Assembly (NCBI RefSeq): GCF_963506605.1
Contig: NC_083286.1
Span: forward strand, 39,122,001-39,186,000
Source: Zootoca vivipara
Taxonomy: Eukaryota
Direction: 5' to 3'
Length of the DNA stretch: 64,000 nt
Positions 44,701-47,700 of the stretch are shown here, piece after piece. The position numbers are program-made. Every line of letters begins with the position of its first letter. Position 1 is the stretch's first letter.

Positions 44701-47700
44701 GCATCAAAAACTGGTGGGTGGGTGGGTAAGAACTGTCACAGATAAAGTGCTGCAGACAAAGCTTTCATAAGAACTTCAGGCAAAATCCATGGATCTGCAA
44801 CAGGTTCACACATTCCTCTATGATTAATTCCCTGCCAAGCAATCAAGTGTTAAATACGAATGTGTGAAATGGCATTCCCCCAACTGCAGTCTATTCTACC
44901 ACTTTATTCTGCTGCAGGTCTAGACCAAGGCTGAGACTTGACAGTTTATATGCCTGTTGGCAACAAAACATGAAAAATAGAGTGCAGCTTCTCTTCAGCC
45001 TTGCTGAAACTAGTTGTTCAAACAAATATAATTACATTGCATTAAGTTCTTTCTAAAGTTCCGTTTGTCTTTCAGTTTCGTTGAATATTAGCCTTAAAAC
45101 ACCTATGATCAGATTAATCCCAGCTTTATCCACATATCTCTGTATTTTGGAATTTGACAGCAGAAGACAAACAAACTCTCTCTAGATTTGGGGAGATTTC
45201 TTTTCCCAGAGCTTTTGGGGAACCGGTGCACTGAGCCATCTGTTTGCAATATAAAGCGACAGAGATAATATAAACCTTTTTATTGGAACATTTGTCAAGT
45301 CTGTTTTTTCAGGAATCAAGAAGCAGCCACACACTTAGCAGAACTCGCTGGCTCACTCTCCCTTTCTATATAAATGGGTAGCAGCCAGAACATCTGCTGC
45401 CGCTCCCCCACTAGCCTTATACCCTCATAGGCTTCAGTTATAAGAAGGATGGGTGAACCCTCACCGATAATTTTGGAGGATATTGTAAGCAAATCAGTTG
45501 ACTCATCAGCTGCAGAGGTTGGTTGCTACTGCATCTGAATGGCTGCCACATTTGAAGGCTGCTCCCCCCCCCCCGAGAGCCACTTTTAAAAGAAAACAAA
45601 CAAAACTACAACGTTCTAACGGCTATCTATTAGCAGCTCTTCTGCTAGGGGTGGAAGGGTCTGTCAATTTTGGTTCCCTCATTTTTCCAATCTTAAATTC
45701 AGTTCACCACATTGCTGCAGCTATTTGCAATTGGGGGGGGGGGAGTTATCATGAAAGTTCTGCAGCATTTCCCTTAACAAATCATATTTCTATGTACTGT
45801 AGGTTTTGACTAACGTGCACCTTTTTGCAAGCGATTTCCATTATATCATACATTTTCCTATATTGTTTCCCCTTATATGTGACGTTCTTGCATGTTGATC
45901 TAGGTTGCCCGGGTTCTGAGATCTCTGGGAGAGTCCCTTCTCTCAGTCCCTCCACCCTCACTGGCATGCTTGGTGGGGACCTGGGAGAGGGCCTTCTCAG
46001 TCGCTGCTCTCAGAGTTTAGAACTCCCTCCCTAGAGAAGCTAGACAGGCTCCCTGCTTGCTGTCCTCCTGCCAGCAGGAGAAGACTTTCCTGTCGCTCGC
46101 TACAGGCTTTTGGGAATTGATTGCTTTTAATCAGGGTTGGTGCCATTCTGCTTTTATTGCAAGTATTATTATGTTTTAAACAGATTTTAAATATTCATAT
46201 AGTTTTAATTCTTTCAAGGTTTAATTGTATTATAATGATTGATTTCTCTGTTTTTAGCCGTTCTTGTTTTAATCTGTAAGCCGCCTTGAATCCTGTCGGA
46301 GAAGAAGGTGGGGCATAAATAAATATTGGACAACAATGTCCTTCATCCACTCACCCCCATTCCAGCATGCAGTAACAATGCAGGTGAGCTCTGCTACGTA
46401 CCCCTGCTGTCTGCTTCTGCCCCAGCCAACACCCTTCTCTGGTCCTGCATTGAATTCTGAGTGTTTTTCCCTGGCTGGAATGCATCCTTGAACTTTGGCC
46501 ATGCCTTTTGCTTGCTTAGATGGAAGATAGAAAGAGGTGTGTGGATGTGTGTAAAAACTAGCCTACTATACAAAGCTGCCAAGTTATCCCTTTTTTAAAG
46601 GGATTTTCCCTTATGCTGAATAGGCTTCCTCGCGAGAAAAGGGAAAACTTGGCAGCTATGTATAGTAGGCTAGTTTTTACACACATCCACACACCTCTTT
46701 CTATCTTCCATCTAAGCAAGCAAAAGGCATGGCCAAAGTTCAAGGATGCATTCCAGCCAGGGAAAAACACTCAGAATTCAATTGCTCCACCCACTTTGGC
46801 ATATGATACCTTCCACCCTCAAAAGGCTGTCTAGAGGGAAATTTGGCCCTCAGACCAAAGAAGGTTCCCCACTCTATTTTAGAACTTGGCTCTGGTTGGT
46901 AGGTTCTAGTGAGCCTCAAATCTGCTCTATTTGATGGTCTCTCTGGGGACAGCGCTCTATATGGAGAACTCCTCTATTTGAATGACTGCCTGGTCCAAGT
47001 CCGATTTCTAAAAAAGAACAATATTTTAAATTAATAGCAACTTCAGTGTGAAGGATTTCAAAAAGTGTCAGAACCTGGAAAGTCAAGGGAGCTGCAGTAA
47101 TATGCCTTTATTCAAGAACTCATTTAAGGAACATGAAATATCTTCAAAGCCACCACTAAGTTTAAAGCATGGTGAAGATGAAAAGCCCTGCCGCCCACCC
47201 CAAAATGCTCTCAGCGATTAGATTCTCTGCACGGCAAAATTCCTTCAGTGGTGAAATTACCCTCCCAGATTCAAATGTGTTAAAAGGTCAAAGGAAGACT
47301 TGAGAATGAAGCTGCTGAACAGCATGGCGCCTGGAAAATTACTGAACAAATCATTTTTAACTTCCATATATGTCTAACGTTTACACAATTAAACTTTCAT
47401 GAATACCCATAAGGGATGTTGGGGCCAACTCCAGAAACCCTAAATTGCTTGCTAAAAATGGTAGTAGAAGTCTATCCTGTTTATTGCTGAAATGACATTT
47501 GTAGCGATGATAGCAGATTATTTTATGTACTGTATTAAATAACTTTGAAAAAAGTCGAGTGCAGTTTGAAGGAAGCTCTGTTTGGGCTTGTAAAACCCAT
47601 GAACAGTGAGCAGGGAGAGTGGGAACAAGTGTCCTATGCTCCGCCCCCCGCCCCCAATTGCTATCCCCATTTCCCCTCCAACTTATGGAATCAGGGAACC

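What the first reader, a model, noticed from the sequence alone, without database searches (positions are those of the whole stretch)
46449..46782. hAT MITE flanked by a perfect inverted duplication instead of a TSD
Seen: a 90-bp MITE (46571-46660), homologous to the normally inserted copy at 6854-6943 (perfect 8-bp TSD). Here both TIRs abut the same 122 bp of apparently unique DNA in inverted orientation, with zero mismatches. There is no direct TSD around the MITE or around the whole 334-bp unit. Established: alternative/sister-chromatid transposition of hAT elements (maize Ac/Ds) makes inverted duplications that end exactly at element termini. Inference: both ends were joined to the same site on two sister chromatids and then resolved by template switching. 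The perfect arms imply a recent event, so a hAT transposase may have been active recently. The unit could extrude a cruciform or give a long dsRNA hairpin.
Basis: partly seen in the sequence, partly recalled or inferred. Interest (0 to 1): 0.72.

Follow-up and report, generated by a model that had tools for sequence, protein, structure and literature searches.

The report
Fold-back duplication around a small transposon
A 90-bp miniature transposon sits at the centre of a perfect 334-bp DNA palindrome, most likely because its own inverted ends folded back and primed copying of 122 bp of neighbouring DNA during break repair; this is a tidy natural example of a known repair scar, not a new kind of transposition.

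Summary
46449-46570 is the exact reverse complement of 46661-46782 (122 of 122). The two arms flank a 90-bp element (46571-46660) related to 6854-6943, which has a perfect 8-bp target-site duplication (TSD). I found a third, 338-bp relative at 21767-22104 with a 6-of-8 TSD. The element's own 24-bp terminal inverted repeats (TIRs) keep two mismatches, so copying began at the element terminus and the element is older than the duplication. The layout is pre-existing short inverted repeats, a 42-nt single-copy spacer and a 122-bp inverted copy. It matches local fold-back (snap-back) inversions described at double-strand breaks in yeast, flies and with Pol theta. No transposase is needed. Maize sister-chromatid transposition uses termini of two elements, gives kb-to-Mb duplications and leaves TSDs, none of which is seen here. 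The family looks old: the two short copies differ at 17 of 90 positions, and no transposase domain was found among the ORFs scanned, which cover part of the window. An assembly or library artefact of the same fold-back type cannot be excluded without reads. No eukaryotic genome collection was available, so copy number and the ancestral empty site remain untested. Interest is modest.

The parts
46449..46570 (+). Left arm of the inverted duplication (122 bp). Its inner 8 bp, CTACTATA, would be the TSD copy if this arm is the original.
   Evidence: Exact reverse complement of 46661-46782. No other copy in the window.
46571..46660 (-). MITE copy B (90 bp), in opposite orientation to copy A.
   Evidence: 73 of 90 identical to copy A, ungapped. 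nhmmer E 1.5e-29 against the A+B profile, of which it is a member.
46571..46594 (+). Left TIR of B (24 nt). It is the deviant terminus: A at position 3 (46573) and A at position 16 (46586).
   Evidence: Pairs at 22 of 24 with 46637-46660. Alignment of the six termini of A, B and C gives consensus CATAGCTGCCAAGT, and only B_left has A at positions 3 and 16.
46595..46636 (.). Single-copy 42-nt spacer (interior of the MITE); the loop of the proposed fold-back intermediate.
   Evidence: 42 nt between the 146-nt arms. Loop in the predicted DNA fold.
46637..46660 (+). Right TIR of B (24 nt), consensus-like. Proposed primer of the snap-back synthesis if the right arm is the copy.
46661..46782 (+). 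Right arm of the inverted duplication (122 bp).
   Evidence: Exact reverse complement of the left arm.
46446..46448 (+). TGC, repeated directly at 46783-46785 just outside the unit. Possibly junction microhomology or a 3-bp duplication; may be chance (about 1 in 64).
6846..6951 (+). MITE copy A (6854-6943) with a perfect 8-bp TSD, CTCTGAGG, on each side: the normally inserted reference copy.
21759..22112 (+). Copy C: a 338-bp relative (21767-22104) with the same termini and flanking 8-mers GCCAGGAA and GCCAGAAG (6 of 8).
   Evidence: nhmmer E 1.6e-4. Sequence read. TIR pair listed. Termini alignment. TSD count.

Best explanation
The unit is a scar of fold-back (snap-back) repair synthesis seeded by the MITE's own terminal inverted repeats.

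Proposed sequence of events:
1. An old 90-bp element with an 8-bp TSD was already in place.
2. A double-strand break, or a collapsed or stalled fork, occurred at or just beyond one end of the element.
3. After 5' resection, the 3' single strand carrying the element folded on itself through its 24-nt TIRs, with the 42-nt interior as the loop.
4. The 3' end at the element terminus was extended, using the opposite flank as template, for 122 nt.
5. The nascent strand was then released and joined to the other broken end. The original flank on that side was lost, including at least its 8-bp TSD copy.

Shown: the anatomy; the retention of pre-existing TIR mismatches next to perfect arms; and the loss of the second TSD copy.

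Inferred: the break, its cause, which arm is the copy, the polymerase (Pol theta-like or Pol delta-like) and the end-joining step.

The unit has no demonstrated function. If transcribed it would give a 146-bp-stem hairpin RNA.
For: 1. Perfect 122-bp arms begin exactly where TIR complementarity ends. Inside that point the TIRs keep 2 mismatches in 24. So the TIRs were the pre-existing primer/template homology and were not recopied. If the two changes had arisen after the event at random over the 2 x 146 paired bases, both would fall in the TIRs with probability 0.027.

2. The element is an independent mobile unit with an 8-bp TSD elsewhere: copy A 8 of 8, copy C 6 of 8. B has lost one TSD copy. 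The only other CTACTATA sites in the window, on either strand, are at 34003 and 60451 (4 matches in all).

3. The same reaction at the same scale is described in passages I read:
- At the yeast HO break, a 10-bp imperfect inverted microhomology with a 41-nt spacer gives foldback inversions of 2 to about 150 bp. The nascent strand is displaced and captured by NHEJ with 0-5 bp of microhomology (PMC11724301).
- Snap-back SD-MMEJ occurs in Drosophila (PMC5728401).
[quoted passage not shown] That matches the two terminal pairs (C-G, A-T) outside the A.A mismatch here.
- Human inverted duplications have a single-copy spacer bounded by short inverted homology (PMC3907307).

4. The MITE alone folds stably as single-stranded DNA: -24.9 kcal/mol, z -7.3, 0 of 200 shuffles as good.

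5. The event is much younger than the family. Zero differences in 122 paired sites gives a 95% upper bound of 2.4% pairwise divergence, against 17 of 90 differences (JC 0.22) between A and B.
Against: - No ancestral or empty allele, no reads and no second genome were available. The break, the deletion and the direction of copying are therefore all inferred.
- In the fold of the MITE alone, the last 3 nt of each terminus are unpaired because of the position-3 mismatch. A primer with only two terminal pairs is a poor substrate for a proofreading polymerase.
- 122 nt lies at the long end of the published size range for such inserts; most are under 14-34 bp.
- No microhomology can be read at the outer junction. 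Neither outer flank continues the template.
- The same structure can be produced in vitro during library preparation.
- Arm-to-arm gene conversion could keep the arms identical, so 'recent' is not proven. The surviving TIR mismatches beside the arms argue against conversion.
Confidence: 0.52

Rival explanations
1. Assembly or library artefact. In vitro, a sheared fragment ending at the MITE folds back on the TIRs and is filled in during end repair, or a long read carries a fold-back. The chimeric sequence is then built into the contig or used to close a gap. The real locus would be flank-MITE-TSD-other flank.
For: Sonication libraries yield chimeric reads formed at natural inverted repeats by intramolecular pairing plus fill-in (PMC10908179 passages). 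Foldback reads make up about 0.55-0.6% of ONT gDNA reads and can tangle assembly graphs (PMC12870357 passages). The window does contain a gap, N at 30110-30261, so the assembly is not gapless; the operators say N may also be deliberate masking. TIR mismatches next to perfect arms are also expected from in-vitro fill-in.
Against: A fold-back chimera runs back along the same flank to the fragment end. It does not explain a clean junction at 46782/46783 to unrelated unique sequence that continues for kilobases. That junction needs supporting reads or an erroneous gap closure (inference). No N or low-complexity sequence lies nearby. No other perfect palindrome appears among the 25 longest of 53 inverted pairs in the window.
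Confidence: 0.2
2. Transposase-initiated variant. A hAT-type transposase cut only the intact right end, because the left terminus is mutated at position 3. This left a 3'-OH exactly at the element terminus, which then snapped back and primed the same fold-back synthesis. It would imply transposase activity at the time of the event.
For: The copy starts at the exact terminal base, with the mismatch three bases in left uncorrected. That is what a primer ending precisely at the terminus predicts. The two private changes are both in the left TIR, while the right TIR is consensus-like, which fits one-ended cleavage. That hAT cleavage leaves the element's 3'-OH free and a hairpin on the flank is recalled (Hermes biochemistry), not checked here.
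Against: TIR complementarity ends at the terminus anyway, so flap trimming after a random nearby break gives the same junction (inference). The yeast case trimmed a 2-nt flap. The family looks old and degenerate (17 of 90 differences). No transposase domain was found among the ORFs scanned: 24 picked across the window (2 hits, both retrotransposon-type) and all 137 of 55 aa or more in 36-57 kb. hAT excision footprints usually keep most of the TSD (recalled), yet no trace of it is left at the outer junction.
Confidence: 0.12
3. The two element ends were integrated at the same site on two sister chromatids (alternative or sister-chromatid transposition), and the resulting bridge was resolved by template switching after 122 bp.
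For: Alternative transposition of Ac/Ds does create inverted duplications bounded by element termini (bioRxiv 10.1101/2020.01.07.897926 passages). The duplication here ends exactly at both termini.
Against: The documented cases use termini of two separate elements, give 0.3-3.2 Mb duplications with composite insertions, and carry footprints. Here the nearest other family member is about 24 kb away (copy C). There is no 8-bp TSD. Both ends abut the same side of the same nucleotide position, whereas a synaptic complex attacks opposite strands 8 bp apart (established chemistry, recalled). My enumeration of single-element sister-chromatid products never yields flank-element-inverted flank (inference). 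The model also needs an extra break or switch only 122 bp away.
Confidence: 0.04
4. The whole 334-bp palindrome arrived as one piece. It is either a multicopy long-TIR element or a fold-back DNA fragment made at another locus and captured at a break. The flanking TGC would be a 3-bp duplication or microhomology.
For: A 3-bp direct repeat TGC borders the unit. The arm has no other copy in the window, so its source could lie elsewhere. Filler DNA of a few bp to several kb is known at transposon excision and break sites (PMC5023962 passages).
Against: A 3-bp match has a chance of about 1 in 64. The unit's outer ends (ATTGAATTC...) resemble no terminus of the family, whose members insert with their own 8-bp TSDs at the inner termini. 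A transposase recognising the inner TIRs would not move the outer arms (inference). No second copy is present in 64 kb.
Confidence: 0.08
5. The MITE inserted into the exact centre of a pre-existing perfect 244-bp palindrome.
For: Flanks that are mirror images would result if the target were the palindrome's central, itself palindromic, k-mer. TA and TATA next to the element satisfy this for k = 2 or 4.
Against: The family makes 8-bp TSDs (copy A 8 of 8, copy C 6 of 8). The 8-mers beside B are not palindromic and match 0 of 8 as direct repeats. Hitting the exact centre is improbable a priori.
Confidence: 0.01

Closest known systems
Local foldback inversions / snap-back SD-MMEJ templated insertions at double-strand breaks (yeast HO break, PMC11724301; Drosophila I-SceI, PMC5728401; Pol theta stem-loop synthesis, PMC11292364)
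   Same: Pre-existing short imperfect inverted repeats next to the break. A single-copy loop (41 nt in yeast, 42 nt here). An inverted copy of the DNA beyond the distal repeat, starting where pairing ends. The primer repeat is retained unchanged. The other end is joined with little or no microhomology. Insert sizes reach about 150 bp.
   Different: Here the seed is a 24-nt transposon TIR rather than a 2-10-nt microhomology. The insert (122 nt) is at the long end of the range. The event is seen as an assembled germline sequence in what looks like a vertebrate, not in an induced-break assay. The break itself is not observed.
Large fold-back inverted duplications with a disomic spacer (human constitutional rearrangements, PMC3907307; short-inverted-repeat-initiated palindromes of Tanaka et al. 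2002, seen only as a citation)
   Same: Inverted duplication, single-copy spacer and inverted homology at the spacer edge. In 3 of 21 sequenced junctions the homology was supplied by inverted transposon copies (Alu, L1).
   Different: Those events replicate a hairpin-capped chromosome end into a dicentric, span kb to Mb and come with terminal deletions. Here synthesis stopped after 122 nt and the chromosome was rejoined locally.
Ac/Ds alternative (sister-chromatid) transposition and composite insertions in maize (bioRxiv 10.1101/2020.01.07.897926; Zhang and Peterson 1999 as cited there)
   Same: Inverted duplications that end at hAT element termini. Potential to make dsRNA from the inverted repeat.
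   Different: It needs two elements' termini, gives 0.3-3.2 Mb duplications, leaves footprints and insertion-site features, and duplicates the element itself. None of this is seen here.
Library-preparation chimeras at natural inverted repeats (PDSM model, PMC10908179) and long-read foldback artefacts (PMC12870357)
   Same: Identical chemistry in vitro: inverted repeats pair within one strand and a polymerase fills in, giving flank-repeat-loop-repeat-inverted flank.
   Different: Artefact molecules end with the inverted flank. They do not continue into new unique sequence as the contig does at 46783.
hAT-superfamily non-autonomous elements (MITEs) of lizards (Novick et al. 2010, PMC3014272)
   Same: 8-bp TSD, short TIRs and small size. 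Copy A's TSD CTCTGAGG fits the NYYYRRRN pattern listed for one Anolis hAT family.
   Different: None of the TIR sequences visible in the passages of Table 1 (CAGTG..., CAGGG..., CAGAG...) matches CATAGCTGCCAAGT. 'CATAG' and 'CAAAG' do not occur in that paper's text. The host species of the window is not known to me.

Membership tests
hAT-superfamily MITE | 8-bp target-site duplication | tested here: met
   Copy A 8 of 8 (CTCTGAGG) and copy C 6 of 8. Copy B, the one in question, 0 of 8, which I explain by the later rearrangement. An 8-bp TSD is not unique to hAT; that the P and a few other superfamilies share it is recalled.
hAT-superfamily MITE | Terminal inverted repeats with the YARNG terminal motif | tested here: inconclusive
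   TIRs are present in all three copies. The family consensus terminus CATAG has T where YARNG needs a purine. Only the mutated B_left (CAAAG) fits. The motif is as quoted in PMC3014272.
hAT-superfamily MITE | Shares termini with an autonomous element encoding a hAT transposase | not testable with these tools
   No hAT domain among 24 ORFs of 90 aa or more picked across the window (2 hits, both retrotransposon-type), nor among all 137 ORFs of 55 aa or more in 36-57 kb (0 hits). No eukaryotic genome or repeat library was available.
hAT-superfamily MITE | Multicopy, dispersed | tested here: met
   Three copies in 64 kb (A, B, C). The genome-wide number is unknown.
Fold-back (snap-back) inversion repair scar | Inverted duplication separated from its template by a single-copy spacer | tested here: met
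   122-bp arms around a 90-bp single-copy element; a 42-nt unpaired core.
Fold-back (snap-back) inversion repair scar | Pre-existing inverted homology at the spacer edges, with the new copy starting where that homology ends | tested here: met
   24-nt TIRs pairing at 22 of 24, shared with other family members and therefore pre-existing. Perfect identity starts at the first base outside them.
Fold-back (snap-back) inversion repair scar | Second junction formed by end joining, often with a deletion on the broken side | tested here: inconclusive
   The second TSD copy is missing, which implies a loss of at least 8 bp. The junction cannot be analysed without the ancestral allele.
Fold-back (snap-back) inversion repair scar | Ancestral allele lacking the second arm | not testable with these tools
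Ac/Ds-type alternative (sister-chromatid) transposition product | Involves termini of two nearby elements (or equivalent non-linear end pair) | tested here: not met
   One intact element with both ends in normal orientation. The nearest relatives are about 24 kb (C) and about 40 kb (A) away. The requirement is as described.
Ac/Ds-type alternative (sister-chromatid) transposition product | 8-bp TSD at the reinsertion site and an excision footprint at the donor junction | tested here: not met
   No 8-bp direct repeat at the element or at the unit borders. A footprint cannot be defined.
Ac/Ds-type alternative (sister-chromatid) transposition product | Reciprocal deletion chromatid or large duplication | not testable with these tools
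   The duplication is 122 bp, against 0.3-3.2 Mb in the maize cases. The reciprocal product is unobservable.

The most novel reading that the evidence does not exclude
A hAT-type transposase was recently active in this vertebrate lineage and made a one-ended cut at the intact terminus of a MITE whose other terminus is mutated. The freed 3'-OH of the element then self-primed on its own TIR hairpin and copied the opposite flank. This would be an undescribed outcome of aberrant hAT transposition. In one step it turns a 24-bp-TIR MITE into a 146-bp-arm foldback locus able to give hairpin RNA against itself and its flank.
Probability: 0.1. Interest if true: 0.6.

Novelty: new member of a known kind. 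Interest (0 to 1): 0.33.

Why it matters
If real, this is a clean natural example showing that the terminal inverted repeats of miniature transposons can act as built-in primers for fold-back repair. The outcome is a long perfect palindrome made from ordinary flanking DNA, with a small deletion on the other side.

That links two literatures: MITE biology and break-repair scars. It suggests a simple, transposase-independent route by which long hairpin loci and long-TIR foldback-like structures arise in vertebrate genomes.

It is also a caution. Inverted flanks at a transposon end are not in themselves evidence of alternative transposition or of a live transposase. The same structure is also what a library-preparation artefact at an inverted repeat looks like.

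Tried and rejected
- **Rfam.** No family reached its gathering score anywhere in the window. At E up to 10 in 46300-46950 there were 9 sub-threshold matches (plant MIR1507 at 35.5 bits against a cutoff of 73, MIR396, snoR125 and others). These only reflect a long hairpin, and I rejected them as chance.
- **Second TSD copy.** I searched for CTACTATA on both strands. There were 4 matches in the window: two are the arms themselves and the others are at 34003 and 60451. No nearby copy exists.
- **Repeat content of the flanks.** BLAST of 45000-48500 against the window, and nhmmer with the arm and with 300 bp of each outer flank, found nothing spanning either outer junction. So I could not tell which arm is the original.
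- **Template continuation or microhomology at the outer junctions.** None found; only a 5-mer CACCC and the 3-bp TGC.
- **Coding context.** Of 24 ORFs of 90 aa or more picked from the 85 listed across the window, 2 had Pfam hits (RVT_1 and ALKBH8_N-like, both in 19.7-20.7 kb, i.e. retrotransposon remnants). Of 137 ORFs of 55 aa or more in 36-57 kb, none had a hit. No gene or transposase was recognised near the unit.
- **MITE inserted at the centre of an older palindrome.** Rejected on the TSD test.
- **Classical quasipalindrome correction.** Rejected because the TIR mismatches were not corrected.
- **ODIRA-type inverted triplication** (seen only in search listings). Rejected because there is no triplication and only one inverted-repeat pair.
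- **Anolis DNA-transposon paper.** No matching TIR in the passages seen.
- **Not attempted.** Searches of eukaryotic genomes, repeat libraries or reads were not available. Supplementary files of papers were closed, so junction tables of PMC3907307 and PMC11724301 were not seen.
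Full report
**What is there**

46449-46570 is the exact reverse complement of 46661-46782 (122 of 122), and the two stretches flank a 90-bp element at 46571-46660.

The repeat finder reports the same structure as 146-nt arms, 99% complementary, with 42 nt between them. The extra 24 nt on each side are the element's own terminal inverted repeats (TIRs). 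These pair at 22 of 24 positions, with A.A mismatches at 46573/46658 and 46586/46645.

As single-stranded DNA the 334-nt unit folds at -184.9 kcal/mol, against -37.5 +/- 4.0 for shuffles; 0 of 100 shuffles fold as well. Among the 25 longest of the 53 inverted pairs found in the whole window, it is the only pair at 99% or better apart from GA/CT microsatellite matches (the remaining 28 pairs were not listed). The feature is real at the stated coordinates and far beyond chance.

**The element is a mobile family of its own**

- Copy A (6854-6943) aligns to B in opposite orientation, without gaps, at 73 of 90 positions. It is flanked by a perfect 8-bp duplication, CTCTGAGG.
Copy C lies at 21767-22104, is 338 bp long, and has the same termini. 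Its flanking 8-mers match at 6 of 8.
- Aligning the six termini gives the consensus CATAGCTGCCAAGT. B's left terminus is the odd one out at positions 3 and 16.

An 8-bp duplication and short TIRs fit the hAT superfamily, as described for lizards (PMC3014272, passages). The terminal motif fits YARNG only imperfectly, however. None of the TIRs visible in that paper's table matches. No transposase domain was found among the ORFs I scanned:
- 2 of 24 picked ORFs across the window had Pfam hits, both retrotransposon-type.
- 0 of 137 ORFs of 55 aa or more within 10 kb either side had a hit.

'hAT' is therefore likely but not shown. The host species is unknown to me. The repeat content looks like a non-mammalian vertebrate, probably a squamate, but that is recollection and not a test.

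**What the details say about the event**

- Beside copy B the 8-mers are CTACTATA and TATAGTAG: reverse complements, and 0 of 8 as direct repeats. No further copy of that 8-mer lies within 12 kb. One of the two original TSD copies has been lost, so at least 8 bp were deleted on one side.
- The arms are perfect while the adjoining TIRs keep two mismatches. If those two changes had arisen after the event at random over the paired bases, both would fall in the TIRs with probability 0.027. The TIR mismatches are therefore older than the duplication, and the copying started at the terminal base of the element, not inside it.
- Zero differences in 122 paired sites bounds the arms' divergence at 2.4% (95%). 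A and B differ at 17 of 90 positions (JC distance 0.22). An old, somewhat decayed element thus acquired its inverted flank late.
- Gene conversion between arms could in principle keep them identical. The uncorrected mismatches right next to them argue against that.

**Mechanism**

The layout has three parts: pre-existing short imperfect inverted repeats, a single-copy loop, and an inverted copy of the DNA lying beyond the distal repeat. This is the signature of fold-back (snap-back) synthesis during break repair.

The closest published case I read is the yeast HO break (PMC11724301, passages):
- A 10-bp imperfect inverted microhomology with a 41-nt spacer yields foldback inversions of 2 to about 150 bp.
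- A short 3' flap is trimmed, and the nascent strand is displaced and captured by the other end through NHEJ with 0-5 bp of microhomology.
- Here the repeats are 24 nt, the loop 42 nt and the copy 122 nt.

Other supporting work:
- The Drosophila SD-MMEJ papers describe the same snap-back logic (PMC5728401, passages).
[quoted passage not shown] That is exactly what remains outside the position-3 mismatch here.
- Human constitutional inverted duplications show the large-scale version, with a disomic spacer bounded by inverted homology that was sometimes supplied by inverted Alu or L1 copies (PMC3907307, passages).

I therefore propose the following. A break or fork collapse occurred at or just beyond one end of the MITE. 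After resection the MITE-bearing 3' strand folded on its TIRs and was extended for 122 nt along the opposite flank. It was then released and joined to the other end with loss of the neighbouring DNA.

The anatomy, the retained mismatches and the missing TSD are shown. The break, its cause, the direction of copying and the enzymes are inferred.

In the passages I read, maize sister-chromatid transposition uses the 5' end of Ac and the 3' end of a separate fAc. It produces 0.3-3.2 Mb inverted duplications with composite insertions and leaves footprints (bioRxiv 10.1101/2020.01.07.897926).

Here a single intact element has both ends in normal orientation, and the nearest relative is about 24 kb away. 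There is no 8-bp duplication. Both ends abut the same side of the same nucleotide, which a staggered two-ended integration does not give.

Working through the possible products when the left end of one sister and the right end of the other are used (my inference, not a tool result) gives deletions, circles, or two inverted element copies around an inverted segment. It never gives flank-element-inverted flank.

The inference that a transposase was recently active is also unsupported, because fold-back repair needs none and the family looks old.

A hybrid remains possible. A one-ended transposase cut at the intact right terminus would leave a 3'-OH exactly where the copy begins, and the left terminus is the mutated one. 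But TIR complementarity ends at the terminus anyway, so flap trimming after any nearby break gives the same junction. I give this variant about 0.1.

**Other rivals**

- *Artefact.* The same chemistry occurs in vitro. Sonication libraries yield chimeric molecules formed at natural inverted repeats by intramolecular pairing and fill-in (PMC10908179), and long-read foldback reads can tangle assemblies (PMC12870357). Such molecules end with the inverted flank, so they do not explain the junction at 46782/46783 to unrelated unique sequence. An erroneous gap closure could explain it. Without reads I leave this at about 0.2.
- *Unit inserted as a whole.* A 3-bp direct repeat, TGC, borders the unit. 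This keeps alive a reading in which the palindrome was made elsewhere and captured here, or is itself multicopy. The chance of such a match is about 1 in 64, and the outer ends resemble no terminus of the family.
- *Older palindrome hit by the MITE.* Insertion of the MITE into the centre of an older palindrome fails the TSD test. The central 8-mer would have to be palindromic and directly repeated, and it is neither.
- *Quasipalindrome correction.* This would have repaired the TIR mismatches, and it did not.

**Function and significance**

I found no evidence of function. No Rfam family reaches its threshold; the sub-threshold hits are hairpin look-alikes. No coding domain lies within 10 kb.

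If transcribed, the unit would form a 146-bp stem with a 42-nt loop. Whether it is transcribed is untested. With a 42-nt spacer, cruciform extrusion should be limited; this is established behaviour of spaced palindromes as I recall it.

The case is a neat natural instance of a known repair scar, with a MITE providing the primer hairpin. It also warns that inverted flanks at a transposon end do not by themselves indicate alternative transposition.

**What stayed unchecked**

- No eukaryotic genome, repeat library or read set was available.
- Copy number of the family and of the arm, the ancestral allele, the identity of the host and read support are all open.

Noticed in passing
window 21759-22112: A third, longer member (338 bp, 21767-22104) of the same TIR family, with a degenerate 8-bp TSD (GCCAGGAA / GCCAGAAG, 6 of 8).
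   Followed up: yes
window 21811-21964 (inside copy C): The interior of copy C carries a roughly 32-nt unit in + - + order (21811-21842, 21863-21894, 21918-21948; 90-91% alike) and a 53-nt-arm inverted repeat with an 11-nt spacer (21848-21900 / 21912-21964). This is an inverted-triplication-like pattern. It could be an older fold-back/template-switch product or simply the family's normal interior.
   Followed up: partly
window 46446-46448 and 46783-46785: A 3-bp direct repeat TGC lies immediately outside the 334-bp unit. It could be chance (about 1 in 64), junction microhomology or a 3-bp duplication.
   Followed up: partly
window 46452-46457 and 46774-46779: A palindromic GAATTC lies 3 nt inside the outer end of each arm, so the point where copying stopped sits next to a self-complementary hexamer. 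Whether this favoured release of the nascent strand is speculation.
   Followed up: no
window 30110-30261: A run of 152 N (assembly gap or masked stretch). It was left untouched, and ORFs containing it were excluded from searches.
   Followed up: no
window 19722-20652 (- strand): A non-LTR retrotransposon remnant: an RVT_1 reverse-transcriptase domain (E 1.7e-10) followed by an ALKBH8_N-like tail (E 5.1e-16) in adjacent ORFs.
   Followed up: partly
window 47930-48489 and 50639-51204: Two roughly 74-83% similar repeat copies in inverted orientation about 2.2-2.8 kb apart. One overlaps a 231-aa open frame (50425-51120, - strand) that looks to me like the C-terminal part of a CR1-type ORF2 (recalled; no Pfam hit).
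   Followed up: no
window 17082-17451: A tandem array with nested periods of 16, 80 and 149 bp (GTTCATAAACTGAAGC-type unit), bracketed by a 43-nt inverted repeat at 17021-17063 / 17431-17473.
   Followed up: no
window 55777-55912: Another MITE-like hairpin with 56-nt arms, 77% complementary and a 24-nt spacer. Related arms occur at 53004-53036, 55044-55073 and 55654-55683, so it is probably a separate short-repeat family.
   Followed up: no
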